Shown one piece after another: positions 44,339-62,083 of a stretch of DNA of 64,000 bases. The notes under the pieces are model-generated. The model was not told the DNA's origin. It was given only the letters and a program-made list of their open reading frames with translations, and ran no database searches. How positions within the stretch are numbered: position 1 is the stretch's first letter; each line of letters starts with the position of its first letter. Source of the stretch: Mycobacterium sp. (lineage in GTDB: Bacteria > Actinomycetota > Actinomycetes > Mycobacteriales > Mycobacteriaceae); assembly GCA_020438905.1 (NCBI GenBank), contig JAGQTQ010000024.1:19138-83137 (forward strand). The letters run 5' to 3'. Made by a program: the position numbers and the translations under genes.

Positions 44339-46186
44339 TCACAGGCTGATCGGAACATGTTTCTCCGCGCAGGCGTCGACGACGGCCGCGACGATGTCCT
44401 GGGTGCGCAACCTCTCCAGATCCGCGACGGTGACCGAGCCACGATCCGCCCTGTTCTGCGCGGCGACCCGCGAATCACGCAGCCGCTCGGCCCGTTCCAC
44501 CACGTTGCGGGCGAATCGCCCGTTCTGCATGAGGTCGATTCCGTGGGTGCCGTCGGCAGCGAGATAGTCACGCAACGCACGGCAGGCGACGTTGAGGGCA
44601 TGCCGGGCGTCGGGATCCAGCATGCTGGCCCGCGGGTTCCCGTAGCGAACGGCGATCTCCACGAGGTCGTCGGGGTCGTAGGAGGCGAAACGCAGCTTCC
44701 GGTTGAACCGGCCGGCCAGGCCAGGGTTGACCTTGAGGAACTCATCGACCTCGCGTTCGTAACCGGCTCCGATGAAGCAGAGGTCGAACCGGTGGACCTC
44801 CAGGGCGACCAGCAGTTGATTCACCGCCTCCATCCCGATCATGTCCGGGCGGCCGTCGTGGTGACGTTCAACGAGGCTGTAGAACTCATCGAAGAACAGG
44901 ATGCGCCCCAGCGAACGGTCGATCAGATCATTGGTTTTCGGCCCCGACGACCCGATGTGCTCACCGCAGAAGTCCGAGCGTTTGACCTCGACGATCTCGG
45001 GGTTCCGGACGATGCCGAGACCGGCGTAGATCTTGCCGAGAGCCTCCGCGGTGGTCGTCTTGCCGGTTCCGGGCGGCCCCACCAGCAGCATGTGGTTCGT
45101 CTGGTTGGTCACCGGCAGTCCATGCGCTAGGCGCAGAGCCCGCACCTCGATTTGGTCCTCGATCTCGGCGACCGCGCGCTTGACCTCGGCCAGACCGACC
45201 TGACCGTGCAGCAGGGCACGGCCCTCGGCCAGAAGTTCGGCCCGTCGCTCGCGATTGCGCTCCTCGGCGCGGGACTCCTCCGAGCGGCCGGTGGTGGCAT
45301 CCCACTTGTCGGTCCGGCTGTTGATCGTCTCCTCGTCGGTGACGACCAGTTGCAGCCTCGGATCGGCCAGCGCCTGTTTGGCCTGGGGGATCGGCACACC
45401 GTTGACGGTGGCCCTGGACAGCCAGATGTCGGCCCTGTCCTGCTCACCGAGTTGCCGGTAGGCCATGCCGCGCGCGTAGGCCAGGTCCGCGGCGATGAGC
45501 GGGAACTCGACAGGGTCGATCACTGCGACCGAGCTGCGGTTGTCCTTCCCGACGGCAACACCCGGGTCACACCGGGTTTGCGCATCGACCCTTTCGGCCC
45601 AGTCGAGGGCAAGGCGAGCCTGGCCGAGATGGGCCGCGGCGTGGGCCGCCAGGGCGGCGGTCCCGGCCGTCACCGCCGACATGATCAGCGCGTTGGCCGG
45701 CAGGACCCGCGCGGCCTCGGCGATGACGTCGGGCCACCGCTGGGTGGCGAACATCAGGTGGCCACGGATGTGCTGACACCACTGGTGGTTCTCCAGGCCG
45801 TCGAGCAGCGCATCGTCCTCGAGAAGAGCTTGGGCCTCCTCGAAGCGGCCCGCATCGACCAACGCACCGGCCAGCGCGATACCCACATGCGATGCCTCGG
45901 TGACCGTGATCGAAAGGTACGGCCCGGCCCGGACCGTTGCGACCAGATGAAGCCCCAGCCGGTTCGACTCCCGGTGCATCCGCGTGCCGCAGGCGAAAAG
46001 GCTCTCCAGCGTGGACAACTCGTCGTCACCGGCGGCGATCCGGCCCAGCCAGGCGTCGGCCATCGACGGGTCGATCTGCGTGGCTTCGCGAAAGAGCCGG
46101 CAGGCCGACGCCGGTTCGACCTCGAGTACCGACACGGCCTGGTCGAAGTGCCGCCGCGCGGCGGCGGTCATGGTGCTGCTGGACAT
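44339..46186 (-). CDS. eccA: Type VII secretion AAA+ ATPase EccA (EccA2-like)
   Basis: TPR-like N-terminus (MADAWLGRI), GPPGTGKTT, ILFFDEFY, NPGLAGRF, NGRFARN. Confidence 0.92.
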   Translation of the reverse strand: MSSSTMTAAARRHFDQAVSVLEVEPASACRLFREATQIDPSMADAWLGRIAAGDDELSTLESLFACGTRMHRESNRLGLHLVATVRAGPYLSITVTEASHVGIALAGALVDAGRFEEAQALLEDDALLDGLENHQWCQHIRGHLMFATQRWPDVIAEAARVLPANALIMSAVTAGTAALAAHAAAHLGQARLALDWAERVDAQTRCDPGVAVGKDNRSSVAVIDPVEFPLIAADLAYARGMAYRQLGEQDRADIWLSRATVNGVPIPQAKQALADPRLQLVVTDEETINSRTDKWDATTGRSEESRAEERNRERRAELLAEGRALLHGQVGLAEVKRAVAEIEDQIEVRALRLAHGLPVTNQTNHMLLVGPPGTGKTTTAEALGKIYAGLGIVRNPEIVEVKRSDFCGEHIGSSGPKTNDLIDRSLGRILFFDEFYSLVERHHDGRPDMIGMEAVNQLLVALEVHRFDLCFIGAGYEREVDEFLKVNPGLAGRFNRKLRFASYDPDDLVEIAVRYGNPRASMLDPDARHALNVACRALRDYLAADGTHGIDLMQNGRFARNVVERAERLRDSRVAAQNRADRGSVTVADLERLRTQDIVAAVVDACAEKHVPISL

Positions 46187-46189
46187 GGC

Positions 46190-47716
46190 CTATTCCGCCG
46201 CTTTCCACTCGGACACGTCCCACTCGGAGCCGGCCACATAGCGGTTCTCGGCCCGGAAGAACTCCGTTTCGATGTCGTAGAGCCGCCCTGCCGCGGTCAC
46301 CTCAACGATGGCCGGACCGGTCTGGGTGATCACGATGTCGGACGCGGGGGGCGCCGGACTACCCGGGGGCCCCACCGAGATCACGGTGCCGGGCCGTGGC
46401 GCGGGGGCCACGGTCCCATCCACCACGCTGACCGTGGTGCCCGGCGCCGGGCGTTGGTGCTCGAGGACGGCGACGCTGGGCATCCGCACGCTCTGCCATC
46501 CCGCGACATCGGTGGTGTGGACGGTCACCCGCTCCCCCGCCGCGGCCGTCCGGATAACGATCCGCTTGGCGATCTCCTGCTCGGCGGCGATGTGCACCCG
46601 GGTCTGTTCGAACGGGTCGCCCAGCGGCATCAGCAGACGCTCGCCGCCGGGCATCTTGCCGATCAGCACCCCGGATGGACCGACCGGGATCACCAGCGCC
46701 CGGGGAAGCGGACCGCGAGCCAGGCCGCGAACCTCCGGACGCGGTCCACAGCGGTTGCCCGCTGCGGCGGCCGCCTGCTCGCCGGGCAGCGTCTGCAGGA
46801 TCACCCCCGGCGGCGCGGTGGGAGGCCGCGGTGTTCGCACCGCTACCGTGGCCTCGACGGTCCCGTCGGGAAATACCGTGATGTTCTGGATGATTCCGTC
46901 CGCGCGCAGCGACCACGCCTGCGCCAGCGCCTCAGCGGTGATGTCTGCGGTCTGATAGCCGTAGCTGGTCTGCCACCCGGCTTCGCCACGCAGACTGAGC
47001 CAACGCCGGTTGTTCGGCCCGAGCGCACCGGTGTCGAGCCGTCTCTCCAGTTCGACCATCTCCGTGGCGCTGGCGACCTTGGCCCGCACGCCCCGGCACC
47101 GCAGCGCCGCGCCGACGCGTTGCGCCGCAGCCAGAGCTGCCGTGCCCACCGTGGGCCGGTCACGTAGCGCCTCGCCGTTGTCGAGAGCATGCAGCCTGAG
47201 CACCAGCCAGGTCTCGCGGCGGCCCGCGTAGGGAGGCGGACCGATCAACGTGTCGTAGATGCCCGGGTAGTCCCCGCTGTTTCGCCGGCGTGCGCCCACG
47301 GTGATGACGCTGAGCGACTCCAGTTCGAGCCCCAGGCTTTGACGCATCAGCGGCAACAGTTCGGCGACGTCGAGGGTGTTCGCCGTCTCAGCCGTCGTTG
47401 ATCCGGTGAAAAACGTTGGCTGCCATGCCTTTCCCAGAATCTGGATCGCCGCGACGGCGATACCGTCCTGATATCGAACTCCGCCACCGGAGCGGTCGTT
47501 GACGAGCGTGACCGGATCCGACAGGTCGAAACGCCGGTCCCGGGTGAGATAGAGCCGTGCCCACGACCACCCCGGTTGCCCCCGCCAGGGCACGGCGAGC
47601 ACGGCCAGCCCCAGTGCCACACCGGCGCCGGCGCCGATATGGGCCGCCAGACTCCAGCCGATGGTTCCGAAGACGAACAGAGCTGCCACCACGGCAAGCC
47701 GGATACCGTCCCTCAT
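46190..47716 (-). CDS. eccE: Type VII secretion membrane component EccE (EccE2-like)
   Basis: Two N-terminal TMs, NDRSGGGVRYQDG, PPPYAGRRETW; between mycP and eccA. Confidence 0.85.
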   Translation of the reverse strand: MRDGIRLAVVAALFVFGTIGWSLAAHIGAGAGVALGLAVLAVPWRGQPGWSWARLYLTRDRRFDLSDPVTLVNDRSGGGVRYQDGIAVAAIQILGKAWQPTFFTGSTTAETANTLDVAELLPLMRQSLGLELESLSVITVGARRRNSGDYPGIYDTLIGPPPYAGRRETWLVLRLHALDNGEALRDRPTVGTAALAAAQRVGAALRCRGVRAKVASATEMVELERRLDTGALGPNNRRWLSLRGEAGWQTSYGYQTADITAEALAQAWSLRADGIIQNITVFPDGTVEATVAVRTPRPPTAPPGVILQTLPGEQAAAAAGNRCGPRPEVRGLARGPLPRALVIPVGPSGVLIGKMPGGERLLMPLGDPFEQTRVHIAAEQEIAKRIVIRTAAAGERVTVHTTDVAGWQSVRMPSVAVLEHQRPAPGTTVSVVDGTVAPAPRPGTVISVGPPGSPAPPASDIVITQTGPAIVEVTAAGRLYDIETEFFRAENRYVAGSEWDVSEWKAAE

Positions 47717-49218
47717 CTGGCCCTCCGCGCCCTGCCGATGAGCGCGGACAGCGCCGCGCCCGCGGCCACCACTCCGGCGAAGGCCAGCGCAGCCGTGTGG
47801 GCTCGGCGGTCCGGGGGCGGGGGCGGCGGGGCCGGTGTCACCACCCGCGAATGTGCGCCGGGTGGCGCGGGATCGCCGACCGGAACGTCGAAGGTCAGCG
47901 CCGCAACCGGATCGACCACCCCGTACCCGATCCGGTTATCGACCCCGCGCGGCGGGTTGTGCGACGTCTGCAGAATCCGGTTGATCACCTGACGGGCTGT
48001 CAGGTGCGGATATTTCGCCCGGACCAGTGCGGCGACACCGCTGACATAGGCCGCCGAGAAGCTGGTGCCCCAGAACGGGACCGGGCTCTCACCCGGACGG
48101 GCCGGAGGGTACGCGTTGACCGGCGCGCCGTCGTGCGGGGAAAGACCCATGATCCCGACGCCGGGTGCGGCCACCGAGATCCACGGGCCGGCGAGGCTCT
48201 TGGCCACCGGGGCCCCCTTGTTGTCGACGGCCCCGACCGACAGCACGTAGTCGGCGAACCACGAAGGGGACGAGACCGTCTTGACCCGGCCCCAGTCCCG
48301 CGGGTCGTTGGTGTCCAGGGGGTTGAGCTCGGGGTTCTGCGCACAACCCTCCTCGCCCTCGTTGCCACCGGCAGCGACGATGACGGCGTCTTTGACCGTC
48401 GCGGCGTACCAGACCGCCGCCCCGATAGCGCTCTGGTCAAGCGGATCCGCCGCCGGGACGCAGGCCGTCACGCTGACGTTGATGACCTTGGCGCCCACGT
48501 TGGCGGCGTGCACGATCGCTCTGGCCAGAGTGGCCACGGTGCCCGCCTTGCGGCCCGCCTCGAGGCCGACCGTGCTCGGGCTCACCGGCTCGTAGGCCCG
48601 CGAGGACTGGCGAATCGAGATCACCGTTGCGTGCGGCGCGACTCCGGCGACCCCGTCCGGCGTGCCGGGCCGCGGGTCCGCCGGGCTGGGCGGTCCGGTC
48701 GGCGGCGCACCCCCACCGACGGCCGCGGGTACCCCGGCAGGCGGCGGGAACGCCGGTCTGGGCGGCATCGGCGCCGGCATCGGCGAGCCTTGCGGAGCCG
48801 CGTTGATCAACGAGGCCACGATCGTCCCGTGGGCATCGCAATCGGTCAGGCCGTCACCGCCCATGACGTAATCCCCGCCGGGGATGACCGGCAGACGACG
48901 ACTGGGCGTGACGCCGGTGTCGATGACTGCGACGGCCACCCCGTTACCGGTGGAGTATTGCCACGCCGCGCGGGTGTTCAGCATGGCGAAACCCGGAGCC
49001 GGCAGGGTGACGTCGGGATCGGCGGCGGCCACCGGCCGGGCGCAGATGTTGCTCTGACGCATGGGCTGTTCGGGTCCGGGCGTGCCATCGGTCGGCACCA
49101 GCGCGGGGTCGACGGAAGGGGGTTCGATGGCCAGCGCTTGCGGCAGAACGGACGCCGGCCCGGTCAGCAGAATGACCAGCGCGACGGCGCCGCACCGGAG
49201 GACCCCGAATCGCCTCAT
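47713..49218 (-). CDS. mycP: Mycosin subtilisin-like protease MycP
   Basis: Signal peptide, VAVIDTG (D), DAHGT (H), GTSFS (S), C-terminal TM; ATGA overlaps on both sides. Confidence 0.93.
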   Translation of the reverse strand: MRRFGVLRCGAVALVILLTGPASVLPQALAIEPPSVDPALVPTDGTPGPEQPMRQSNICARPVAAADPDVTLPAPGFAMLNTRAAWQYSTGNGVAVAVIDTGVTPSRRLPVIPGGDYVMGGDGLTDCDAHGTIVASLINAAPQGSPMPAPMPPRPAFPPPAGVPAAVGGGAPPTGPPSPADPRPGTPDGVAGVAPHATVISIRQSSRAYEPVSPSTVGLEAGRKAGTVATLARAIVHAANVGAKVINVSVTACVPAADPLDQSAIGAAVWYAATVKDAVIVAAGGNEGEEGCAQNPELNPLDTNDPRDWGRVKTVSSPSWFADYVLSVGAVDNKGAPVAKSLAGPWISVAAPGVGIMGLSPHDGAPVNAYPPARPGESPVPFWGTSFSAAYVSGVAALVRAKYPHLTARQVINRILQTSHNPPRGVDNRIGYGVVDPVAALTFDVPVGDPAPPGAHSRVVTPAPPPPPPDRRAHTAALAFAGVVAAGAALSALIGRARRAR

Positions 49219-50711
49219 CGCATCCGCACCCAGGCGAACAGGCCACCGATCCAGGCGGCCAGCGGCAACGCCACCACGATGGCGGCCAATTCGAACCACT
49301 CGGCGACCATCCGCACCAGCGGGGTGAACCGGGCGGCCGGTATCAACAGCGACGCGGCCAGACCGAGCCCGGCGAACGCGGTCAGGACCAGGGTTCCCCA
49401 CAGCAGTGGGGCAACGGAAGCCGCCGGAGCGGCCAGAACGTAGCGGACGACGCCGCTGCAGAACGCCGCCACGGCCCCGCCGACCAGCGCGATCGCCTGG
49501 ATCCGGTCGGTGAACGCCCGCCCCCTGCTGATGAAGATCAGTACGAAAAGGCCGGACAGGATCGCGGCGGGGATTCCTCTCGGTTGCCACGGCGTCAACG
49601 TCGCCCACACGGCGATCGGCAGAACGATCGCCGCCGCAAGGCAAATGCCGGCCAGAACACCGTTGGCGGTTCGGGCCGCCTCGGCGATCACCGTCCCCGA
49701 TGGTGTGCGGTCCGGACTCGGTTCCTCCTCGGCGTGCTCGTCAACCGGTGTGACGGCATCGACCGGCATACCGTCGCCGCGGCGGAAGAGATCGCGACCG
49801 GTGATCGACCCGAAGTGCGGCGGCCGTATCCGGGCCGCCCGCAGTGCGAGCGTCGGAGCGGCCGTGACCAGGACGAGAAGTCCGACCAGCGCCCCCATCC
49901 CCATCCGCTGCGCGTCCACAGGCTGCCACATGCGTACCGCCGAAACGAGTACGGCTACCGCACAGAGGGTTACGACGGTTGCCGCGATCGTCACGTAGGC
50001 ACGGGTTGCCGTTGCCAGCGTCGCCGCCATGACGCCCGCTGCCAGGGCGGCGATGAACAGGTGCGCCGCACCGACCTGACCGGGCGCAGCCGATGCCAGA
50101 CCGACCGACAACGGCATGACCGCCGACCAGCCCAGGATTCCCGACACTTCCGGGTACCCGGGCCACCATCTGCGGGTCCAGACGGCCCCGGCCACCAGAA
50201 GCGCTCCGGGAACCAGTGCGGCAAGCGATCCCGCCCACGAGTCGGTGAGGATCCGGGTGCGGACCGCGAGAGCGGTCGTGATCAGCACAGCCATCGCGAG
50301 GATCCCCAGCGCCGTGCGTTGCGCGGTCTGTGCGGTTACCGGCGCGAAAAGCTGCTTGCCGATACGCGCCAAACCCGTTGACAGTGACTCGTATTGGGGC
50401 AGGAAGGATTCGCCCGGTTCGGCCGGAACCAGCACCAGGGTTGCGCCGTCTTCGACACCCAGCTCGTCGAGATTCCTGGAGATGTCCAGACGGGTTCCGT
50501 TCGCACGGTGCAATTCATAGGCCAGCCCAGGGTCGAGGGCCGTGCCGCCGCGGCGCCTGAGGTCCTCGTCGAGGAGTTCGACGATGTCATCGATGAACGC
50601 CTCGACGGGTACCGAGGCCGGGTACACCTGGGAGACGAGGTGTTCGCCATAGATCACGGCGACGGCACAGCGCGCCGGAAAGGCGGCCTTGACGGTCATA
50701 GGAGCGGACAT
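49215..50711 (-). CDS. eccD: Type VII secretion membrane protein EccD (EccD2-like)
   Basis: Ubiquitin-like N-terminus (SQVYPASVPVE, LDELGVEDGA) followed by about 11 TMs; TGATG overlap with the upstream gene. Confidence 0.9.
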   Translation of the reverse strand: MSAPMTVKAAFPARCAVAVIYGEHLVSQVYPASVPVEAFIDDIVELLDEDLRRRGGTALDPGLAYELHRANGTRLDISRNLDELGVEDGATLVLVPAEPGESFLPQYESLSTGLARIGKQLFAPVTAQTAQRTALGILAMAVLITTALAVRTRILTDSWAGSLAALVPGALLVAGAVWTRRWWPGYPEVSGILGWSAVMPLSVGLASAAPGQVGAAHLFIAALAAGVMAATLATATRAYVTIAATVVTLCAVAVLVSAVRMWQPVDAQRMGMGALVGLLVLVTAAPTLALRAARIRPPHFGSITGRDLFRRGDGMPVDAVTPVDEHAEEEPSPDRTPSGTVIAEAARTANGVLAGICLAAAIVLPIAVWATLTPWQPRGIPAAILSGLFVLIFISRGRAFTDRIQAIALVGGAVAAFCSGVVRYVLAAPAASVAPLLWGTLVLTAFAGLGLAASLLIPAARFTPLVRMVAEWFELAAIVVALPLAAWIGGLFAWVRMR

Positions 50712-51742
50712 CAGCGGGGCCGGTCTGCATCCGGGACGTACTTGTCGGCGAGGGTCGCGGCGATCTCGAAGAGCCGAAGCCGCGCCTTCTTGTGTATTTC
50801 GCAACGGGTGTCGATGATCCCGCCCTCGGCCAGGTGCGGGTCGAAGGGCATGAACTCGACGTCCGCGCCGGTCCGGGCGAACCTCTCGGTGAGGTAGTCC
50901 CGGGCGTCCTTGTCGTATCCGTTGCGGCTGTCGTTGAGAATCACCGTGCTGCGCGACACCAACTCGTGATAGCCCATTGAGCGCAACAGGTCGATGGCCC
51001 GCGTGACGGGCAAGGACGCATCCGCGGTGAGGCCGGAGACGAAAACCAGTGTGTCGGCCGCGTCCAGGACTGCCTTCATCACCGGATGTTCGAGATCGTC
51101 GGAAGTGTCGACGAGAATCACATTGTGGGTTCGGCGAAGTCGCGCCAGGACGCCACTGAACATCGCGGGCACCAGAGGTCTGGGCTGATCGGACATCCGG
51201 TTGCCGGCCAGGACGTCAAGCCCGACGGCGTTCTGCCCAAGATGTTCCCGGATATCGGCGTAGCCTTGGACGTCGGCGTCATCGAGCACCCCCGCGTAGT
51301 CCCCGGGAGGGGATTCGTCGATGCGCCCGGCCAGCGTCCCGAAGCCCGGCGCGGCATCGACCGCGACGATGTTCTCGGTTCGGCATTCGCGGATAACCCC
51401 GCCGATGGACGCCGTCATGGTGGTCTTGCCGACGCCTCCCTTCCCGGAGACGAAGGCGATCACATACTGCTTGCGGATGTGCCGGCGAATCCGATCCCGG
51501 AGTTCTCTGTGGTGCCGTTCAGCGGGCGATTCACCGGGGTTGACGGTCTTGAAGGACAGCTTGAAAACGAGTCTGCGCCAACCCGCGGCGGGAGGAACCT
51601 TGCGGGGCGCCACCATGTCCGAGATCCGCAACGTCCCGGAGACCGAATCCGACCGGGGCCGGATGTGAGTCGTGGACGGATCTCTTTCGGTCGCCGAAGG
51701 CGGATCCTCCTGGAGTACCGCCTCCTTCCAGGGAGAGCTCAT
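50711..51742 (-). CDS. MinD/ParA-family ATPase of ESX loci (Rv3888c/EspI-like)
   Basis: Deviant Walker A GKGGVGKTT, VAVDAAPGFG, FMPFDPHL. Confidence 0.85.
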   Translation of the reverse strand: MSSPWKEAVLQEDPPSATERDPSTTHIRPRSDSVSGTLRISDMVAPRKVPPAAGWRRLVFKLSFKTVNPGESPAERHHRELRDRIRRHIRKQYVIAFVSGKGGVGKTTMTASIGGVIRECRTENIVAVDAAPGFGTLAGRIDESPPGDYAGVLDDADVQGYADIREHLGQNAVGLDVLAGNRMSDQPRPLVPAMFSGVLARLRRTHNVILVDTSDDLEHPVMKAVLDAADTLVFVSGLTADASLPVTRAIDLLRSMGYHELVSRSTVILNDSRNGYDKDARDYLTERFARTGADVEFMPFDPHLAEGGIIDTRCEIHKKARLRLFEIAATLADKYVPDADRPR

Positions 51743-52576
51743 CTAAACCACCTTTCTGTAGCAATGCCAGTCGTCTCGGGCCGGCAACCGGCGCAACATC
51801 CGCTGCACCGCCGAGGCGATACCGGAGGTCGAACCGGGGCCGACGATCATCCATGTCCTGCCGGCGCGTTGGTCGTGCTCGGAGAGCAGTCGGCCCTGCG
51901 GGGTGTCGATGACGGTCACGGTGGTCGATCCGATGCCCGAGTCGCCCGGGTGACCGGCCACGCCGGACTGGAGTGCCACCAGGGAGACCTGGACCGAGCG
52001 CTCCCCATCGGCCGCCAGCATCAGGGATCCGATTTGGTCGCCGTCGAATCCGCAGTCGCGGAGGAAGCTGCGCAGGCTCGTGCGGTCACGAACTGCGGCC
52101 AGCAGTTCAGTGCCGTCCAGCGTCACCGGCCTCACGTCGGCCGGGGCCTTGTCGCCGCAGAGACGTTGGATCTGGGACTGGATCAGCAGGCCCGCCGACC
52201 GCTCGGTTGCGGCCGTGCCGACACCGCCGAGGCGGATGAGGACTCCGCATCGCTCCAGGCTGACCCACCATTGCGCGAAGCGGGCCAACAGCACCCGCTC
52301 GAACCCGGGCCCCGTGCTGGGGGTCTGGGCGTGCAGCAGCAGGCCGACCTCCCGTCGCGCCAGGACGGTCATCCATTCGAGGACGGTCTGATCCACCTCA
52401 CCGGCAGGGCCGATGGCACCGACGTCCCGAAGCTCCTCCGCCACCGGATGCGCCAGCGCCATGTGGGTGGTCTCCACGCTGGGCAGGTGCGGGCGCAGAC
52501 CCAGTTCGGGCGCCAGCACCTCGATACCGGACAGGACCTGGAGAACCCAAAGGCCGTCAAGTGTGGTCGTCAACAT
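51743..52576 (-). CDS. espG: PE/PPE chaperone EspG (EspG2-like)
   Basis: MLTTTLDGLWVLQ N-terminus resembles EspG2; IDTPQGR near the C-terminus; alternative start 52594. Confidence 0.85.
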   Translation of the reverse strand: MLTTTLDGLWVLQVLSGIEVLAPELGLRPHLPSVETTHMALAHPVAEELRDVGAIGPAGEVDQTVLEWMTVLARREVGLLLHAQTPSTGPGFERVLLARFAQWWVSLERCGVLIRLGGVGTAATERSAGLLIQSQIQRLCGDKAPADVRPVTLDGTELLAAVRDRTSLRSFLRDCGFDGDQIGSLMLAADGERSVQVSLVALQSGVAGHPGDSGIGSTTVTVIDTPQGRLLSEHDQRAGRTWMIVGPGSTSGIASAVQRMLRRLPARDDWHCYRKVV

Positions 52577-52599
52577 GTACGTGTCCTCCGACATGACGT

Positions 52600-52629
52600 G
52601 GTGGGCGCGCACGATTCGGCGCGCCCACC
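52600..52629 (-). terminator. 11-bp GC stem-loop between esxC and espG
   Basis: GGTGGGCGCGC-acgattcg-GCGCGCCCACC. Confidence 0.6.
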
Positions 52630-52645
52630 GGCCGATGCCATCCGG

Positions 52646-52933
52646 TTAGAAGAGGTTCCCCATCATCAGGTCGGTCTGGTGGGCACTCTCGTTGACGCTG
52701 CTGATCGTCTGCCCGTGCTTGTTCATCGTGTGGATGAGCCCCTGCAGGCCGCCCAACATCTGCATCTGCGATTCGTGGAACGCGGTGGCCGCCGTGCCCT
52801 GAAAGAAGTCGGCGATCGCATTGGTGCGCTGCGCGATGTCGTCGTGGATCTGCATCAGCTGTGCCGAGCGGGCTCCGACATCGGAGGCGAAGTCGGCGAC
52901 ACCGCCGTGGTTGTAGGTGATGTGGTCTGACAT
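52646..52933 (-). CDS. esxC: WXG100 protein, EsxC-like
   Basis: MSDHITYN..VADFASDVG..FFQG..QMLGGLQGLI closely follows the recalled EsxC sequence; FxG replaces WxG. Confidence 0.85.
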   Translation of the reverse strand: MSDHITYNHGGVADFASDVGARSAQLMQIHDDIAQRTNAIADFFQGTAATAFHESQMQMLGGLQGLIHTMNKHGQTISSVNESAHQTDLMMGNLF

Positions 52934-52957
52934 TGGAAAGTCCTTTCGAGAGTGGGG

Positions 52958-53263
52958 TCAGGCGTTGGCGGCGAACGCCGTGAGGCTGTGGGCTGCTTCG
53001 GACTCGTGGCCTTCCATCAGCGAGGCGGCCTGGCCGAGCCCATGAGCGAGCCGGGTGCCGCCGGTGATCGTCTGCTGGAGGTCCTGATTGATCTGGGCGG
53101 CGGTGTGCACCGACGCGAGTTGGGCCTGACCGCCCCAGACGGCCGAGCCGAGACCCTCGTGGGTGCTCAGGTAGCCGTTGGCAATGGCCGTGGCGTGCTC
53201 GAGCGCCGATTCGATGGCCTGTCGGGTGCTGCGAAGCACCTCCGGTGTGACGACGAGTGGCAT
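52958..53263 (-). CDS. esxD: WXG100 protein, EsxD-like
   Basis: VTPEVLRST, central WGG, TGGTRLAHGLGQAASLMEGHE matches the recalled EsxD sequence. Confidence 0.85.
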   Translation of the reverse strand: MPLVVTPEVLRSTRQAIESALEHATAIANGYLSTHEGLGSAVWGGQAQLASVHTAAQINQDLQQTITGGTRLAHGLGQAASLMEGHESEAAHSLTAFAANA

Positions 53264-53399
53264 GTGTTCTTCCCTGTCTAGACGGATATGTGATCAACCC
53301 CGGACGGGGCGGATTTCGAGTATTCGACGCGGAATCGCGGGTGTCACTTCACCCTGTGGCAAACCGTTGTTTTCAACCCCCCTTGATGACGGTGATTAG

Positions 53400-54614
53400 C
53401 TACACAGCCCGATCCGGGGCCACCACCACCCGCGCTCGCGGCATCTCCTCGGCCTCGCCCGCATCTTTGCCATGGGCCGGGCGGGCCGGCGGGACCATCG
53501 GAATCCCCGGGCTCCCGATCGCCCCCGTCGTCGGACCCCGCTGTTCGGCCGCGCTGAGCAGACCGGCTTTCAACCCCACCGGCCGACCACCGCTCTCCGG
53601 CGGGAAGCTGCTGGCCGGCCGGCTGAAACTGGTCAGCCCGGCGCCGGGAATGCCGGCGCCGGCCGCACCGCCACCCGCCGTTGCGCCCGGGGCGGCTCCG
53701 GCGCCGAGACCCCCGGCGCCGGTCGGGTTCGCGGCGGCGCCGACCAGCGCGCCCGGCAGGCCGAACTCGCCCGTCGGAGCTCGGCCGATCAGTCCATCGA
53801 GCGAGCCGGTCATCGACTGCAGCAATCCGGGCATGCCCCCGGCGGCCTGCATCGGGCTCTGGAACATGCCCATCGCGGGCTGCATCGCCCCCAGAGCCGA
53901 CTGAACCGGCTGCATCATCGACCCGATCCGCCCAGCCTGTCCGGCCGGGGCCGCGGCAGCGTCGCCCGCCACCGCCCCAAGCTGCCCCGACTGCTCCAAC
54001 GCCCCGCCGGCGACGGCCTGCGCCGCGTTCTGCGCCGCCGCGGCCAGCGCCGGCGCGGCGGCCGATGCCCCCGGCGGCGACAGCGGCGGAGGCACGGTCA
54101 ACGCCGCAGCCAGCGCCCCGAGCGCGGATCCGTAGGCCGCCCCCGCCGCAGCGTTGTGCGGCCAGTACTCACCGAAATAGGCGGCGTCCAGCGCCACGAT
54201 CACGGGAGTGAGAGCCCCGAGCACCAGCGGGTTCAGCGCTACGTCGGCCGCCTGTTCGGTGCGATTGGCGATCGAGACCGCGGCCGGGATCATCGATGAC
54301 ACGGCGGTTTCGTAGGCCGAGACGGCACTCGCCGCAATCGGCGGCTTCTCCTGGGCCCAGCCCGCGAGCATCTGCAATGCGGAGTTGAGTCCGGTCACCG
54401 CGGCGGCCGAGCTCAGGCCGCCCACCCCCTCGAAGTCCGCGGCGGTGGCCGTCGCGTTGAGCGTCGAGGCCGAGAACGCCAGCTCGTCGCCGACCGTCAG
54501 CGCCTGCCAGGCCACCGCGCTGGCCACCGTGGTCGCGGTGCCGGCCACGCCCGGTCCCGCCAACCTCAGATAGTTGACTTCGGGCGGGGAGGACGACCAT
54601 GAGGGATCCGGCAT
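53400..54614 (-). CDS. PPE protein (PPE69-like)
   Basis: MPDPSWSSSPPEVN, ANRTEQ, YFGEYWPHN; Gly/Ala/Pro-rich C-terminus. Confidence 0.9.
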   Translation of the reverse strand: MPDPSWSSSPPEVNYLRLAGPGVAGTATTVASAVAWQALTVGDELAFSASTLNATATAADFEGVGGLSSAAAVTGLNSALQMLAGWAQEKPPIAASAVSAYETAVSSMIPAAVSIANRTEQAADVALNPLVLGALTPVIVALDAAYFGEYWPHNAAAGAAYGSALGALAAALTVPPPLSPPGASAAAPALAAAAQNAAQAVAGGALEQSGQLGAVAGDAAAAPAGQAGRIGSMMQPVQSALGAMQPAMGMFQSPMQAAGGMPGLLQSMTGSLDGLIGRAPTGEFGLPGALVGAAANPTGAGGLGAGAAPGATAGGGAAGAGIPGAGLTSFSRPASSFPPESGGRPVGLKAGLLSAAEQRGPTTGAIGSPGIPMVPPARPAHGKDAGEAEEMPRARVVVAPDRAV

Positions 54615-54626
54615 GGCAACGCGGCC

Positions 54627-54926
54627 CTACAGCGCCAGGGCCGCGTTGTTGACGGCATCGGTGACGGTGTAGGTCACCGCGGCGAGGTTCTGCGCGTCGG
54701 CGAACAGAGCGCGGTTCGCCAGATGCTCGCCCGCGGTTCCCACGTAGGCCGCCCCGGCCGAGTTCAGCGCGGCGGCGAAGGCCAGCGAATCCAGGTCCGC
54801 TCCCATCGGAAGGACACCGACCAGCGCCTCCGCGGCGGCTGCGGTTGCCGCCGCCAGCGCCGCGCCGATGCCCGTTTCCGTCGCAGCGGATGCGGCAACC
54901 GTTGCTGAGTTGACATTCAAGACCAT
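54627..54926 (-). CDS. PE-domain protein (PE36-like) lacking the literal PE dipeptide
   Basis: 99 aa, Ala-rich, PMGADLDS motif, C-terminal YxxxD (YTVTD); paired with the PPE. Confidence 0.85.
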   Translation of the reverse strand: MVLNVNSATVAASAATETGIGAALAAATAAAAEALVGVLPMGADLDSLAFAAALNSAGAAYVGTAGEHLANRALFADAQNLAAVTYTVTDAVNNAALAL

Positions 54927-55014
54927 GTTCGACCCCTGCTTCCCCCGCTCGCCAGGGCGGCGAGCCGGGGCCAGCCTAGAGTGTGCTGAAGCATGCTGTC
55001 GAGTCAGCTTGATC

Positions 55015-55028
55015 GTTTGCTAGCAAAC
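55015..55028. promoter_or_regulatory. Perfect 14-bp palindrome GTTTGCTAGCAAAC in the divergent ESX/sdh1 promoter region
   Basis: Read directly; candidate -10s are TAGGCT (minus, 54978-73) and TACCAT (plus, 55105-10). Confidence 0.5.
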
Positions 55029-55158
55029 TCCAGGTGAAGGCGCCGCCGGGAATCTTGCGACCCCGGAATTCCCGACCCCGCCGCCGGGTTTCGCGGGCAG
55101 CGCCTACCATCGGGGTCATAGTGTGATTCCCGACACTTTCGGCCCCGAGGAGGCCCCT

Positions 55159-55455
55159 ATGCCCAAAGCCGCTGAACTCGCCGAACTGCACCACCTGATC
55201 GGGAACATGCGCCGCTGCGTGACTGCACTGCAGGAGCGCTACGGCGATGCGCCGGCGATGCGCCGAGTGCTGATCGACACCGACCGCATCCTCGGTGACC
55301 TGGAGATTCTCGAGATGGACGCCGGCGAACTCGAGCACGCCGCGCACATGGTGGCGGCCACCGGGGAGAAGGTCCAGGTGCCCGACACGCCCTACGACAG
55401 GGAGTTCTGGCGGGGCATCGACGACGAGGGCGTGGGCGGGCGCAACCGCGACTGA
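55159..55455 (+). CDS. Small conserved protein of the sdh1 operon (Rv0250c-like)
   Basis: ELAELHHLIG..RYGDAPAMRR..PDTPYDREFW..DDEGVGG; GAGGAGG RBS. Confidence 0.8.
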   Translation: MPKAAELAELHHLIGNMRRCVTALQERYGDAPAMRRVLIDTDRILGDLEILEMDAGELEHAAHMVAATGEKVQVPDTPYDREFWRGIDDEGVGGRNRD

Positions 55456-55524
55456 CCCGACTTTAGAAACGGGTGCACGTCTGAGTAGTGTTCCGTGCAG
55501 TTGACTCGAAGGGGATCACTGCAG

Positions 55525-56352
55525 ATGAGCGCACCCGCAGCCAATCGTCCAGCCACCGGTGTCTTCTCACCCGGTCGGGCGCAGATTCCGCAGCGGACGC
55601 TGCGCACGGACAACTGGCTGAAGTCGCCCATTCTCGTCGACCTCGGTTTCGCCGCGTTCGTCATCTACGCGACGGTCCGGGCCTTCCAGCGTGACCACTT
55701 CTACGTCGAGAAGTACCACTACCTGACGCCGTTCTACTCGCCCTGCCTGTCCGTCAAGTGCGGCGAGGCCAGCGAGTTCTGGCCGCAGATCCTTCCCGGT
55801 TCCGGCCCACTGTCGCTGCTGCCCTACGCGCTGCTGTCGCTACCGTTCCTACTGTTGTTCCGGCTGACTTGCTACTACTACCGCGGCGCCTATTACCGGT
55901 CGGTCTGGCAGTCCCCGACAGCCTGCGCGGTGGCCGAACCCCACGCGACCTACACCGGCGAGACCCGCTTCCCCCTGATCCTGCAGAACCTGCACCGCTA
56001 CTTCTTCTACATCGCCGCGGTGATCTCGTTGATCAACACCTGGGACGCGATTCAGGCCATGCACTCGCCGTCCGGTTTCGGCTTCGGCCTGGGCAACGTC
56101 ATTTTGTGGACCAACGTCATCCTGCTGTGGACCTACACCGTCTCGTGCCACTCCTGCCGACACGTGATGGGCGGGCGGCTCAAGCACTTCTCCCAGCACC
56201 CCGTGCGCTACCGGCTGTGGACCGAGATCAGCAAGCTCAACGTCCACCACAAGAAGTTCGCGTGGATCACTCTGGGCACGCTGATGCTCACCGATTTCTA
56301 CATCATGCTGGTCGCCAGTGGCACCATCTCCGACCTGAGATTCATTGGCTGA
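55525..56352 (+). CDS. Sdh1 membrane anchor subunit (Rv0249c-like)
   Basis: YLTPFYSPC, FRLTCYYYR, SCHSCRH motifs, TM helices, upstream of sdhA. Confidence 0.88.
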   Translation: MSAPAANRPATGVFSPGRAQIPQRTLRTDNWLKSPILVDLGFAAFVIYATVRAFQRDHFYVEKYHYLTPFYSPCLSVKCGEASEFWPQILPGSGPLSLLPYALLSLPFLLLFRLTCYYYRGAYYRSVWQSPTACAVAEPHATYTGETRFPLILQNLHRYFFYIAAVISLINTWDAIQAMHSPSGFGFGLGNVILWTNVILLWTYTVSCHSCRHVMGGRLKHFSQHPVRYRLWTEISKLNVHHKKFAWITLGTLMLTDFYIMLVASGTISDLRFIG

Positions 56353-56391
56353 CCTGGGTTTTACCGATAGTTGCAGTGAGGACGAGAAGTT

Positions 56392-58308
56392 ATGGTTGAA
56401 GTCGAACGGCATTCGTACGACGTCGTCGTGATCGGTGCCGGGGGCTCGGGGCTGCGCGCGGTGATCGAGGCCCGTCAGCGCGGTCTGCGGGTCGCGGTGG
56501 TGAGCAAGTCTCTGTTCGGCAAGGCCCACACGGTGATGGCCGAGGGCGGTTGCGCCGCAGCGATGGGCAACGCCAACTCCAAGGACAGCTGGCAGGTGCA
56601 CTTCGCCGACACCATGCGCGGCGGGAAGTTCCTCAACAACTGGCGGATGGCCGAGCTGCACGCCCAGGAGGCACCCGAGCGGGTGTGGGAGCTGGAAACC
56701 TACGGCGCGCTGTTCGACCGGACCAAGGACGGCCGGATCAGCCAGCGCAACTTCGGCGGCCACACCTACCCGCGGCTGGCCCACGTCGGTGACCGCACCG
56801 GCCTGGAGATCATCCGCACCCTGCAGCAGAAGATCGTCTCGCTGCAGCAGGAGGACAAGGCCGAACTCGGCGACTACGAGGCCCGGATCAAGGTCTTCGC
56901 CGAATGCTCGATCACCGAGCTGATCACCGAGGGCGGCCGGATCGCCGGAGCGTTCGGCTACTGGCGCGAAACCGGCAAGTTCATCCTCTTCGAGGCGCCG
57001 GCGATCGTGCTGGCCACCGGCGGCATCGGCAAATCGTTCAAGGTGTCGTCGAACTCCTGGGAGTACACCGGCGACGGCCATGCGCTGGCGATGCGGGCCG
57101 GGTCCTCGCTGATCAACATGGAGTTCATCCAGTTCCATCCGACCGGCATGGTCTGGCCGCTGTCGGTGAAGGGCATCCTGGTCACCGAGGGCGTGCGCGG
57201 TGACGGCGGGGTCCTGAAGAACTCCGACGGCAAGCGGTTCATGTTCGACTACATCCCCTCGGTGTTCAAGGGCCAATACGCCGAAACCGAGGAGGAGGCC
57301 GACCAGTGGCTCAAGGACAACGACTCGGCTCGGCGCACCCCTGACCTGCTGCCCCGCGATGAGGTGGCCCGGGCCATCAACAGTGAGGTCAAGGCGGGCC
57401 GGGGCACCCCGCACGGCGGGGTGTACCTCGACATCGCCTCGCGGATGACCCCCGAGGAGATCAAGCGCCGGTTGCCGTCGATGTACCACCAGTTCCTCGA
57501 ACTGGCCGAGGTCGACATCACCAAGGACGAGATGGAGGTCGGGCCGACCTGCCACTACGTGATGGGCGGCATCGAGGTCGACCCCGACACCGGGGCCGCG
57601 GCCACCCCCGGCCTGTTCGCCGCCGGCGAGTGCGCCGGCGGCATGCACGGCTCCAACCGCCTGGGCGGAAACTCACTGTCGGACCTGCTGGTGTTCGGCC
57701 GGCGCGCCGGCCTCGGCGCCTCGGACTACGTTCGCGGACTGTCGAACCGGCCCACGGTGTCGGAGGCGGCCATCGAGGAGGCCGCCGGGATCGCGTTGGC
57801 TCCGTTCAAGGGACCCGAGGGCCGCGCGAAGCCGGAGAACCCATACACCCTGCACGCCGAGCTGCAGCAGACGATGAACGATCTGGTCGGCATCATCCGC
57901 ACCGGCGGGGAGATGCAGCAGGCGCTGGACCGGATCGAGGAGTTCAAGGTCCGCTTCCGCAACATCGAGTCCGACGGGCGCCGCGAATTCAACCCGGGCT
58001 GGCACCTGGCGATGGACATGCGCAACATGCTCCTGGTCAGCGAATGCGTGGCGCGCTCCGCGATGGCGCGCACCGAGAGCCGCGGCGGCCACACCCGCGA
58101 CGACTTCCCGCAGATGGACTCGCACTGGCGTCGCTCGCTGGTGGTGTGCCGCTCGGCCGGCGACGATCCGGTGATGCCGGAGGTTCGCGTCACCCCCGAG
58201 CAGCAGCCCGCGATGCGCGAGGATCTGCTCGAACTGTTCGACATCGAGGAACTCGGCAAGTACTTCACCGACGAGGAGCTTGCGCAACACCCGGGACGGA
58301 GGGGCTAG
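56392..58308 (+). CDS. sdhA: Succinate dehydrogenase/fumarate reductase flavoprotein (Sdh1, Rv0248c-like)
   Basis: IGAGGSG, AHTVMAEGG covalent FAD site, QFHPT, HYVMGG, HGSNRLGGNSL. Confidence 0.95.
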   Translation: MVEVERHSYDVVVIGAGGSGLRAVIEARQRGLRVAVVSKSLFGKAHTVMAEGGCAAAMGNANSKDSWQVHFADTMRGGKFLNNWRMAELHAQEAPERVWELETYGALFDRTKDGRISQRNFGGHTYPRLAHVGDRTGLEIIRTLQQKIVSLQQEDKAELGDYEARIKVFAECSITELITEGGRIAGAFGYWRETGKFILFEAPAIVLATGGIGKSFKVSSNSWEYTGDGHALAMRAGSSLINMEFIQFHPTGMVWPLSVKGILVTEGVRGDGGVLKNSDGKRFMFDYIPSVFKGQYAETEEEADQWLKDNDSARRTPDLLPRDEVARAINSEVKAGRGTPHGGVYLDIASRMTPEEIKRRLPSMYHQFLELAEVDITKDEMEVGPTCHYVMGGIEVDPDTGAAATPGLFAAGECAGGMHGSNRLGGNSLSDLLVFGRRAGLGASDYVRGLSNRPTVSEAAIEEAAGIALAPFKGPEGRAKPENPYTLHAELQQTMNDLVGIIRTGGEMQQALDRIEEFKVRFRNIESDGRREFNPGWHLAMDMRNMLLVSECVARSAMARTESRGGHTRDDFPQMDSHWRRSLVVCRSAGDDPVMPEVRVTPEQQPAMREDLLELFDIEELGKYFTDEELAQHPGRRG

Positions 58309-59058
58309 ATGAGCTACCAGGCAAACCTGCGGGTGTGGCGCGGCGACGACGAGGGCGGCGGGCTGCACGATTTCACCGTCGCGGTCAACGAGGGCGAGGT
58401 CGTCCTCGACATCATTCACCGGCTGCAGGCCGAGCAGGCCCCGGACCTCGCGGTGCGGTGGAATTGCAAGGCCGGCAAGTGCGGTTCCTGTTCGGCGGAG
58501 ATCAACGGCCGACCGCGGCTCATGTGTATGACCCGGATGTCGACCTTCGACCCCGCCGAGACCGTCACGATCACTCCTTTGCGCACCTTCCCGGTGATCC
58601 GCGATCTGGTCACCGATGTGTCCTTCAACTACGAGAAGGCCCGCGAGATCCCTTCGTTCGCACCGCCGAAGGATCTCCAGCCCGGCGAGTACCGGATGGC
58701 CCAGATCGACGTGGAACGCTCCCAAGAGTTCCGCAAGTGCATCGAATGCTTCCTCTGCCAGAACGTCTGCCACGTGGTGCGTGACCACGAGGAGAACAAG
58801 AAGGCCTTCGCCGGCCCGCGTTTCCTGATGCGCACCGCCGAGCTGGACATGCACCCGCTGGACACCCTGGACCGCAAGGACATGGCCCAGGAGGAATTCG
58901 GCCTCGGTTACTGCAACATCACCAAGTGCTGCACCGAGGTGTGCCCCGAGCACATCAAGATCACCGACAACGCCCTGATCCCGATGAAAGAACGGGTTGT
59001 CGACCGCAAGTACGACCCGGTGGTCTGGCTCGGCAACAAGCTGTTCAAGCGGAAGTAG
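58309..59058 (+). CDS. sdhB: Succinate dehydrogenase iron-sulfur subunit (Rv0247c-like)
   Basis: CKAGKCGSC, CIECFLCQNVC, CNITKCCTEVCP. Confidence 0.95.
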   Translation: MSYQANLRVWRGDDEGGGLHDFTVAVNEGEVVLDIIHRLQAEQAPDLAVRWNCKAGKCGSCSAEINGRPRLMCMTRMSTFDPAETVTITPLRTFPVIRDLVTDVSFNYEKAREIPSFAPPKDLQPGEYRMAQIDVERSQEFRKCIECFLCQNVCHVVRDHEENKKAFAGPRFLMRTAELDMHPLDTLDRKDMAQEEFGLGYCNITKCCTEVCPEHIKITDNALIPMKERVVDRKYDPVVWLGNKLFKRK

Positions 59059-59129
59059 ACCCGCCCGGCGCGCCCGCGGAGAAGCCACAACGGTTGGTCG
59101 GTTTGAGAGCGCGTGCTCCGCTGGGGAGA

Positions 59130-61395
<2,266 letters not shown>

Positions 61396-61406
61396 CTGAC
61401 CTGCTG

Positions 61407-62042
61407 ATGTGGATCACCCTGCTGGTGATGGCCGTCGCGGTGAGTCTGGAGCCGTTTCGGATCGGGATGTCGGTGGTGATGCTCAACCGTCCGCGCCCGC
61501 ACCTGCAACTGGCGGCATTTCTGTGTGGTGGTTTTCTGATGGGCTTGGCGGTCGGCACTGTGGTGTTGTTCGCCCTCGGGTCCAGACTGCCGGCATCCAC
61601 GCATTTCACCCTGCCCAAGGTGCAGATCGTCATCGGCGGGCTGGCCCTGCTGGCCGCTGCGGTTGTCGCCACCACCAACGCCGGCAACCACGCCCCACCG
61701 TCATGGCTGGCCCGACTGCTCGGCGGGCAGTCCTTGTGGGTCGCAGGTACCGCGGGCCTCGGCATCGCGCTGCCGTCGGTCGACTACCTGGCGGCGCTGG
61801 CGGTCATCGCCGCCGGCGCGACCACACCCGCGACCCGGATGTCGGCGCTACTGGTATTCAATGTTGTGGCCTTCGCCCCGGTGGAAGTCCCACTGCTGGC
61901 CTACCTGGTTGCCCCGGATCGGACGCTCGCAGCGATGACCAGGCTGCACCGCTGGATTCGCGCGCGCCAACGACACGAGGTCGCCGGGTTGCTGGCGGTG
62001 GTGGGCGGCGTATTGGTGACTGCCGGGGTGCTGGGGTCGTGA
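61407..62042 (+). CDS. Gap/Sap-family glycolipid-addressing membrane protein
   Basis: AVSLEPFRIG..LNRPRP, GIALPSVDYLAAL; about 6 TMs; follows the FAAL. Confidence 0.8.
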   Translation: MWITLLVMAVAVSLEPFRIGMSVVMLNRPRPHLQLAAFLCGGFLMGLAVGTVVLFALGSRLPASTHFTLPKVQIVIGGLALLAAAVVATTNAGNHAPPSWLARLLGGQSLWVAGTAGLGIALPSVDYLAALAVIAAGATTPATRMSALLVFNVVAFAPVEVPLLAYLVAPDRTLAAMTRLHRWIRARQRHEVAGLLAVVGGVLVTAGVLGS

Positions 62043-62083
62043 AGCCGCTCATTGCACTGAGCGATCCACCGTACCGAGCGTCG

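What the first reader, a model, noticed from the sequence alone, without database searches (positions are those of the whole stretch)
44339..54926. ESX-2-type secretion locus with intact genes but no eccB or eccC
Seen: ten co-oriented ORFs without evident disruption (PE, PPE, esxD, esxC, espG, MinD-like ATPase, eccD, mycP, eccE, eccA). Catalytic motifs are intact and several junctions are ATGA/TGATG-coupled. Established: this is the order of M. tuberculosis ESX-2 (Rv3893c to Rv3884c), where eccC2 and eccB2 lie directly upstream of the PE gene. EccC is the motor ATPase and EccB a core membrane subunit. Here only about 230 bp separate the PE start from the divergent sdh1 operon, with no ecc remnant and a plausible promoter. 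Inference: it is either a split ESX with eccB/eccC elsewhere, a 'half' system borrowing EccB/EccC from another ESX, or a recently decapitated relic. ESX-2 is mostly described in slow growers and on related ESX-P plasmids, whereas this host looks like a rapid grower.
Basis: partly seen in the sequence, partly recalled or inferred. Interest (0 to 1): 0.85.

Follow-up and report, generated by a model that had tools for sequence, protein, structure and literature searches.

The report
Split ESX-2, a lineage's last ESX
The two "missing" core genes of this wastewater mycobacterium's protein-secretion locus (ESX-2) lie elsewhere in the genome, so the system is split rather than headless and likely still works; in this lineage it is usually the only such system found, which would make it a natural model for the least understood of the five mycobacterial ESX systems.

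Summary
The ten ORFs are real and intact, and eccB/eccC are absent upstream of PE. The system is not headless. Orthologous eccB2-eccC2, with a DUF2710 gene, form their own unit on contig C154, an inferred 53 kb away; relative G050 holds both halves 88 kb apart on one contig. The halves have congruent trees (35 genomes, no strong conflict) and dN/dS of 0.07-0.28. Each of three modules carries a conserved promoter-like element, and breaks fall at module borders at least five times in this clade, as general genome shuffling predicts. [quoted passage not shown]

The larger result is the host: a small-genome aquatic lineage outside the slow growers. Its ESX-3 site is empty in 26 of 30 and its ESX-4 site in 22 of 30 relatives (the rest unresolved), and 21 of 29 show ESX-2 alone. 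Published surveys call ESX-3/4 near-ubiquitous and chromosomal ESX-2 slow-grower-specific. Secretion, expression and function are untested. The window contig is chimeric at about 58.3 kb, outside the locus.

The parts
54627..54926 (-). PE (99 aa, YxxxD signal); first gene of module 2
   Evidence: Pfam PF00934; motif
53400..54614 (-). PPE (404 aa); the only PPE besides that of the C157 ESX locus
   Evidence: Pfam PF00823; 2 PPE genes in G000, 1 each in G042, G046, G050
52958..53263 (-). esxD (WXG100); first gene of module 3
52646..52933 (-). esxC (WXG100)
51743..52576 (-). espG2 chaperone (start codon chosen by me; ORF opens at 52612)
   Evidence: PF14011
50711..51742 (-). MinD/ParA-like ATPase (EspI-type)
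49215..50714 (-). eccD2
   Evidence: TIGR03920 over cut-off
47713..49218 (-). mycP2, catalytic triad present
   Evidence: TIGR03921 over cut-off
46190..47716 (-). eccE2
   Evidence: TIGR03923 over cut-off
44339..46186 (-). eccA2 AAA ATPase; the only eccA found in G000
   Evidence: TIGR03922 over cut-off
54969..55028 (-). Conserved promoter-like element for PE-PPE: GTTTGCT box (55015-55028), TCGACA, 18 nt, TAGGCT. In intact loci it sits inside the 119-125 nt eccC-PE gap
   Evidence: alignment of 29 related upstream regions plus the window; coordinates; activity untested
53314..53364 (-). Conserved promoter-like element for esxD-eccA: GTTTGCC, GTGAAGTGACA, 17 nt, AATACT
   Evidence: alignment of 33 regions; the only consensus hit (0.2 expected); activity untested
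55123..59058 (+). Divergent sdh1 operon: the neighbour gained at the break, not part of the system
58300..58360 (.). Chimeric assembly junction. Contig C154, which carries DUF2710-eccB2-eccC2 at C154:49574-55505 (minus strand), begins at the matching place

Best explanation
This is one half of an ESX-2 type VII secretion gene set whose eccB2-eccC2 genes lie in a separate unit elsewhere in the genome, split by a rearrangement at an inferred internal promoter, and the two halves likely still assemble one working secretion machine. Shown: cognate, full-length eccB2 and eccC2 exist; both halves share one tree and are under purifying selection; each module has its own conserved promoter-like element. 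Inferred from ESX-5: EccB2 and EccC2 made from the distant unit would join EccD2, EccE2 and MycP2 in the inner membrane, EspG2 would chaperone the PE-PPE pair, and EccC2 would export EsxC-EsxD and PE-PPE. Inferred: the split is neutral, tolerated because it falls between transcription units in a lineage that shuffles its operons. Least certain (about 0.4 on its own): with ESX-3, ESX-4 and mycobactin synthesis gone, the exported PE-PPE/EsxCD set most likely serves as a housekeeping outer-membrane conduit or surface layer.
For: G000 has two eccB-eccC pairs. The C154 pair is 69-73% (EccB) and 77-82% (EccC) identical to the genes directly upstream of PE in 4 intact ESX-2 loci, against 26-37% to the other pair and to ESX-1/3/4/5-type loci. 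It groups with ESX-2 at support 1.0, and its third ATPase domain matches solved EccC2 best (E 7e-70 against 2e-38 for EccC5). G050 (99% complete under handle G099) has both halves on one contig about 88 kb apart, collinear with C154 then C106. An EccB2 ortholog was found in 29 of 30 relatives. Half-locus and EccB+EccC trees: 35 genomes, 21 of 25 strong splits shared, 0 conflicts, distance rho 0.91. dN/dS 0.07-0.28 for the ten genes against G042; 0.11 for eccC and 0.22 for eccB against G041. Promoter-like elements at all three modules. Shuffling control: embA-embB stays joined in every clade locus whose contig reaches that far, while the gene after embB has at least 6 different neighbours.
Against: No expression or secretion data exist here. 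G000 mixes two sister populations and the window contig is chimeric, so the 53 kb link inside G000 is inferred, not read from one contig. dN/dS is somewhat higher in split pairs (0.13-0.22 half, 0.09-0.14 eccB/C; 6 pairs) than in intact pairs (0.08-0.17 and 0.06-0.07; 3 pairs). G042 lacks eccB/eccC; I read this as an assembly gap. G104 (80% complete) and G006 (72%) have eccB2 but no window half was found. Three to ten MspA-family matches per genome (5 of 5 searched) weaken the need for a PE-PPE uptake channel.
Confidence: 0.88

Rival explanations
1. Headless ESX-2 that borrows EccB/EccC from another ESX (here the divergent C157 locus).
For: G000 carries a second complete eccB-eccC pair on C157, whose locus lacks eccA. 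The closest relative G042 shows no eccB/eccC.
Against: Cognate eccB2-eccC2 are present and co-inherited. C157 EccC is 26% identical to EccC2 and sits with its own eccD, eccE, mycP. 21 of 29 relatives have no second ESX to borrow from. G042's contig ends inside the intervening segment, and gltD and the echA neighbour are missing too. EccC sets substrate specificity even between species (10.1101/765206, abstract).
Confidence: 0.03
2. Recently decapitated relic, no longer functional.
For: True ESX-2 relics exist in larger relatives: G011 has a deletion joining eccC2 codon 350 to eccA2 codon 434, and G008 has frameshifts. dN/dS is slightly raised in split pairs.
Against: All genes are open across lineages with dS of 0.2-1.3 and dN/dS far below 1. 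Promoter-like elements are conserved.
Confidence: 0.04
3. Assembly or binning artefact: the halves come from different organisms.
For: The bin holds a 21.9 kb segment twice at 91.9% identity, and the window contig is chimeric at about 58.3 kb.
Against: The chimeric point is 3.4 kb outside the PE-sdh1 junction, which a single contig of run X2 bridges. C154 starts at the chimeric point and has the same distance to G042 as the ESX half. G050 has the whole arrangement on one contig.
Confidence: 0.03
4. On function: the system is kept to survive grazing by protists (phagosome damage), not for envelope housekeeping. Compatible with the split architecture; the confidence given is for function only.
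For: EsxCD is reported as needed for phagosomal permeabilisation in M. tuberculosis (PMC12635105, passages). The window's DNA is found in sludge and wastewater runs of 11 studies. M. paragordonae, with a split ESX-2, resists killing by amoebae (PMC6616192, passages; no causal link shown there).
Against: No ESX-1 and no PE/PPE expansion (1-2 PPE genes). The same paper makes EsxC export depend on ESX-4's EsxUT, and the ESX-4 site is empty here.
Confidence: 0.3
5. On function: DNA transfer between cells, as for plasmid ESX and ESX-1/ESX-4. The confidence given is for function only.
For: ESX-2 descends from plasmid conjugation-linked loci (PMC4779608, PMC5381665, passages).
Against: Both halves are flanked by core metabolic genes, and the ESX trees match the EmbB host tree in their main groups. 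I did not search for type IV genes.
Confidence: 0.15

Closest known systems
M. tuberculosis ESX-2 (Rv3884c-Rv3895c)
   Same: Same ten genes in the same order, with eccA last; the distant EccC matches solved EccC2 best.
   Different: eccB2-eccC2 are unlinked; no ESX-1 next door; the host lies outside the slow growers and lacks ESX-3 and ESX-4 at their sites.
[quoted passage not shown]
   Same: ESX-2 in two distant parts (PMC4791881 'transposition of EccB2 and EccC2'; PMC6616192, 8 + 4 ORFs; passages seen).
   Different: There the break is PPE|esxD and PE-PPE travel with eccB-eccC (also in G004, G010, G014, G023). Here it is eccC|PE, an independent event in another branch.
ESX-2AN of M. tusciae and plasmid ESX-P2 types
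   Same: ESX-2-like systems in hosts of the rapid-grower branch (PMC4791881, passages).
   Different: This EccC is 76% identical to slow-grower EccC2 and groups inside chromosomal ESX-2; P2-like copies are 35-37%. M. tusciae itself was not compared.
ESX-5 membrane complex
   Same: Sister system; five membrane components plus Esx and PE/PPE are needed for secretion (PMC10597459, abstract). Basis of the mechanism inferred here.
   Different: 31% EccC identity to an ESX-5-like locus; no PE/PPE expansion.

Membership tests
ESX-2 (chromosomal) | Full core gene set eccA, B, C, D, E, mycP, espG, espI, PE, PPE, two esx | tested here: met
   Ten in the window, eccB and eccC on C154
ESX-2 (chromosomal) | Order PE-PPE-esx-esx-espG-espI-eccD-mycP-eccE-eccA with eccA last | tested here: met
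ESX-2 (chromosomal) | EccB/EccC group with ESX-2, apart from ESX-1/3/4/5 and plasmid types | tested here: met
   support 1.0; best solved match EccC2. Labels of the reference loci rest on position and gene order
ESX-2 (chromosomal) | eccB2-eccC2 directly upstream of PE in one locus | tested here: not met
   unlinked; also not met in published M. avium complex and M. paragordonae ESX-2
ESX-2 (chromosomal) | Restriction to slow growers | tested here: not met
   host outside the slow-grower clade; intact ESX-2 also in named Mycolicibacterium records L067, L078, L098
ESX-2 (chromosomal) | EccC2-dependent export of EsxC-EsxD | not testable with these tools
   needs culture or proteomics
M. avium complex-type split ESX-2 | Break between PPE and esxD, PE-PPE moving with eccB-eccC | tested here: not met
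   break is eccC|PE in the window; the PPE|esxD break occurs in 24 of 80 related loci
Plasmid ESX-P | Plasmid location with type IV genes | tested here: not met
   flanked by sdh1, glf, embCAB, gltBD, echA; type IV genes not searched genome-wide
Headless ESX borrowing EccB/EccC | No cognate eccB/eccC in the genome | tested here: not met

The most novel reading that the evidence does not exclude
[quoted passage not shown] ESX-2 is then an ancient, self-sufficient secretion system with an important job outside any animal host, working without the ESX-4 partner reported as needed in M. tuberculosis, and held together across scattered operons by a shared promoter signature.
Probability: 0.55. Interest if true: 0.72.

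Novelty: new variant of a known kind. Interest (0 to 1): 0.5.

Why it matters
The split itself is minor: it is a known kind with a new breakpoint. It does show that ESX-2 has three separable modules, and that a locus read alone can look headless. The lineage context matters more. Surveys describe ESX-3 and ESX-4 as present in almost all mycobacteria and chromosomal ESX-2 as confined to slow growers, with unknown function (PMC4779608, PMC4791881, PMC8190616; passages). A lineage that dropped the first two and kept ESX-2 under purifying selection reverses that picture. It offers a non-pathogenic setting in which ESX-2 can be studied with no other ESX to mask it, and a direct test of whether ESX-2 export needs ESX-4 (PMC12635105).

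Tried and rejected
Headless reading in G042: rejected as an assembly gap, because its contig ends inside the intervening segment and gltD and echA are missing too.

16S rRNA for host placement: not in the assembly. rpoB is only partial. EmbB was used instead; G017, G020, G052 and G059 were left out for lack of a full ortholog, and G017 was added.

Expression: no RNA holder listed, which is no evidence either way. Co-occurrence of the C154 block in the same sequencing runs remains unchecked.

Shared regulator: a pattern built from the esxD and DUF2710 promoters hits only those two sites in 3.69 Mb and 0 in a Markov background. The pattern was drawn from those sites, so this is circular and only suggestive. 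The TT[TA]GC[TC] box pattern matched 26 of 28 PE and 27 of 33 esxD regions but only 4 of 29 DUF2710 regions, where the box reads TTGCTG.

Selection for splitting: rejected as unnecessary; operon ends are shuffled generally in this clade.

Porin loss as the reason for keeping PE-PPE: not supported. Mycobactin loss is not specific to the clade: MbtI passes its cut-off in 0 of 31 clade genomes but also in only 5 of 9 larger relatives.

No structure or complex prediction was run: textbook pairs would pass by likeness to solved structures. Earlier findings of this scan: four look-ups returned nothing.

Literature: ten searches found the two split-ESX-2 precedents and nothing on an eccC|PE break or an ESX-2-only lineage. 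Subscription papers are not in the library, and figure supplements of PMC4791881 gave only species lists as text, so locus diagrams there could bear on the breakpoint claim.
Full report
1. Observation. The ten minus-strand ORFs at 44339-54926 are open and are PE, PPE, esxD, esxC, espG, an EspI-type MinD-like ATPase, eccD, mycP, eccE and eccA. Catalytic motifs and coupled junctions are as described. No EccB or EccC family match lies on this contig. Upstream is the divergent sdh1 operon; downstream come an amidase/LGFP gene, a GLTT-repeat gene and glf. The PE-sdh1 junction is bridged by a 7.7 kb contig from run X2 and recurs in L061, L068, L073 and L109.

2. The missing genes. G000 is a 3.69 Mb, 84.9% complete assembly with exactly two eccB-eccC pairs. 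The pair on C154 stands alone as DUF2710-eccB-eccC between gltD and an enoyl-CoA hydratase gene (the gltD and echA names are my reading of the sequences). It is 69-73% and 77-82% identical to the eccB and eccC directly upstream of PE in four intact loci, groups with chromosomal ESX-2 at support 1.0, and its last ATPase domain matches solved EccC2 far better than EccC5, EccCb1 or EccC3. Both proteins are full length and pass the family cut-offs. The second pair (C157) belongs to a separate, divergent ESX locus with its own eccD, eccE, mycP, espG, esx and PPE, but no eccA.

3. Is the link real? The bin holds 21.9 kb twice at 91.9% identity. The window contig is 75-96% identical to G042 left of about 58,300 and 99.2-100% right of it, and C154 begins exactly there. 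I infer that C154 is the true continuation of the ESX-bearing population, which puts eccC2 about 53 kb from PE. Independent of this, G050 carries gltD-DUF2710-eccB-eccC-echA and sdh1|PE...eccA about 88 kb apart on one contig, collinear with C154 then C106. An EccB2 ortholog was found in 29 of 30 relatives that I chose from the 80 loci. The exception, G042, has a contig end inside the intervening segment and also lacks gltD and the echA neighbour.

4. One system under selection. Trees of the window half and of EccB+EccC over 35 genomes share 21 of 25 strong splits with no conflict. dN/dS is 0.07-0.28 for the ten genes and 0.11 and 0.22 for eccC and eccB. Split pairs run somewhat higher than intact pairs, which may reflect mild relaxation or the small genomes generally.

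5. Why it can split. Each of three modules has a conserved promoter-like element: before DUF2710, before PE (inside the 119-125 nt eccC-PE gap of intact loci, and kept in the split loci aligned), and before esxD. Among the 80 related loci, 24 are intact, 15 start at PE, 24 start at esxD and 17 are too short to tell (two of the 80 come from one genome). Within the host clade, intact loci (G043, G044, G055) are nested among split ones with different new neighbours, so there were at least five independent breaks unless loci rejoined. One subgroup has the modules permuted. As a control, the gene after embB also varies widely while embA-embB stays joined. Neutral shuffling at operon borders is sufficient. 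That the elements are promoters is inferred from their form and conservation.

6. The host. By EmbB, G000 lies in a clade of 25 small assemblies (2.6-4.5 Mb; support 99), sister to a group with G071 and G072 and outside the clade of named slow growers (one marker, quick search). Its DNA occurs in sludge and wastewater runs from 11 studies. Of 29 small relatives, 21 show no core gene of any second ESX in three searches, 1 has a 45-residue fragment and 7 have extra loci of mixed types; G000 itself has the C157 locus. Six of the 29 were not placed by EmbB (three by ESX trees, three by identity only).

7. Empty sites. In G000 the two genes that flank ESX-3 in G021 are 74 nt apart on one contig. 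The site is 1.4 kb or less in 26 of 30 clade assemblies, unresolved in 4, and 18-40 kb with ESX-3 in 3 of 4 larger relatives; G002 also lacks it. At the ESX-4 site only an Rv3446c-type gene remains. In G000 a short run of N interrupts this site, but it is closed and empty in 22 of 30 relatives, on overlapping contigs in 1, unresolved in 7, and filled in 4 of 4 larger relatives.

8. Ascertainment. Those 29 genomes were found through an ESX-2 gene, so I also picked clade members by EmbB alone from genus-wide draws (50 matches were not listed). All 8 have eccB2, and 7 of 8 have no other eccB; 2 of the 8 repeat earlier genomes. The window half was found in 6 of 8 and not in two assemblies of 72% and 80% completeness. 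In the 14-genome sister group eccB2 was not found in 5, three of them at least 99% complete, and G011 carries a deletion relic. The numbers are small and kin are not independent.

9. Mechanism. Shown: a complete, co-inherited, conserved gene set in separate modules. Inferred from ESX-5 (PMC10597459 and 10.1101/765206, abstracts): the five membrane components assemble regardless of gene position, and cognate EccC2 exports EsxC-EsxD with the single PE-PPE pair. For purpose I put about 0.4 on an outer-membrane conduit or surface role, 0.3 on surviving protist grazing and 0.15 on DNA transfer. MspA-family porins are present, which counts against the first.

10. Comparison and novelty. Split ESX-2 is published for the M. 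avium complex (PMC4791881, passages) and M. paragordonae (PMC6616192, passages); the latter, and my own relatives G004, G010, G014 and G023, have the PPE|esxD break. The eccC|PE break and an ESX-2-only lineage were not found in ten searches. PMC4779608 calls ESX-3 and ESX-4 present in almost all species analysed and ESX-2 restricted to slow growers and the M. terrae complex; PMC8190616 knows no report of chromosomal ESX-2 in Mycolicibacterium (passages). PMC4791881 does describe an ESX-2-like ancestral locus in M. tusciae. PMC12635105 (passages) reports that EsxC export in M. tuberculosis depends on ESX-4-encoded EsxUT. PMC5381665 and PMC6917791 were seen as passages and add background only.

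11. Verdict. The headless system is refuted and the split is a new variant of a known kind, worth perhaps 0.3 alone. The lineage-wide loss of ESX-3 and ESX-4 with ESX-2 retained is well supported by empty sites and would surprise specialists, but it rests on metagenome assemblies with no expression data. Overall interest 0.5.

Noticed in passing
window about 58300-64000 (C106:77494-99320) and C154:1-21829: The window contig is chimeric inside sdhB: the right part belongs to a sister population (99-100% to G042), and the bin holds this 21.9 kb segment twice at 91.9% identity. Findings right of 58.3 kb should be read with this in mind.
   Followed up: yes
G000:C157:1681-17691 (L010): A second, divergent ESX locus (PPE, ORF, two esx-like genes, espG, eccD, mycP, eccE, eccB, eccC; no eccA; a PE-like frame on the opposite strand). 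Its closest match among loci compared is G048:C23 (65%), where eccB-eccC come first, so it too is permuted at the eccC|PPE border. It groups with none of the ESX-1 to ESX-5-type references.
   Followed up: partly
G000:C147:21408-21482 (L282) and G000:C21:15489-16730 (L281): Empty ESX-3 site, and ESX-4 site reduced to a lone Rv3446c-family gene, which is kept at this site in many clade members.
   Followed up: yes
G000:C154:55182-55505 (L009:15183-15506): A DUF2710 gene (weak YbaB/EbfC match) travels with eccB2-eccC2 in nearly all loci that reach that far; a likely ESX-2 accessory. Its likeness to EspL is recalled, not tested.
   Followed up: partly
G000:C132:991-2921 (L312): A WXG100-like gene next to an alpha/beta hydrolase, single copy: a candidate ESX substrate pair outside the locus.
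   Followed up: partly
G011:C1:5773001-5776092 (L050); G019:C347 (L059); G008:C3 (L049): ESX-2 relics in larger relatives: a deletion joining the start of eccC2 to the end of eccA2 (G011), a similar loss in G019, and many frameshifts in G008 (possibly sequencing errors).
   Followed up: no
L179, L183, L187 with L121, L122, L125; G240:C5 and C7: A subgroup has the modules permuted: PE-PPE-x-DUF2710-eccB-eccC beside glf, and esxD-eccA after gltD.
   Followed up: partly
L067, L069, L072, L076, L078, L098: Intact ESX-2 loci in named records of the rapid-grower branch, including a complete Mycolicibacterium chromosome (L078), at odds with published statements that chromosomal ESX-2 is confined to slow growers.
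   Followed up: partly
G017 and G208: No EccB match at all in two assemblies of 78% and 87% completeness; possibly mycobacteria without any ESX.
   Followed up: no
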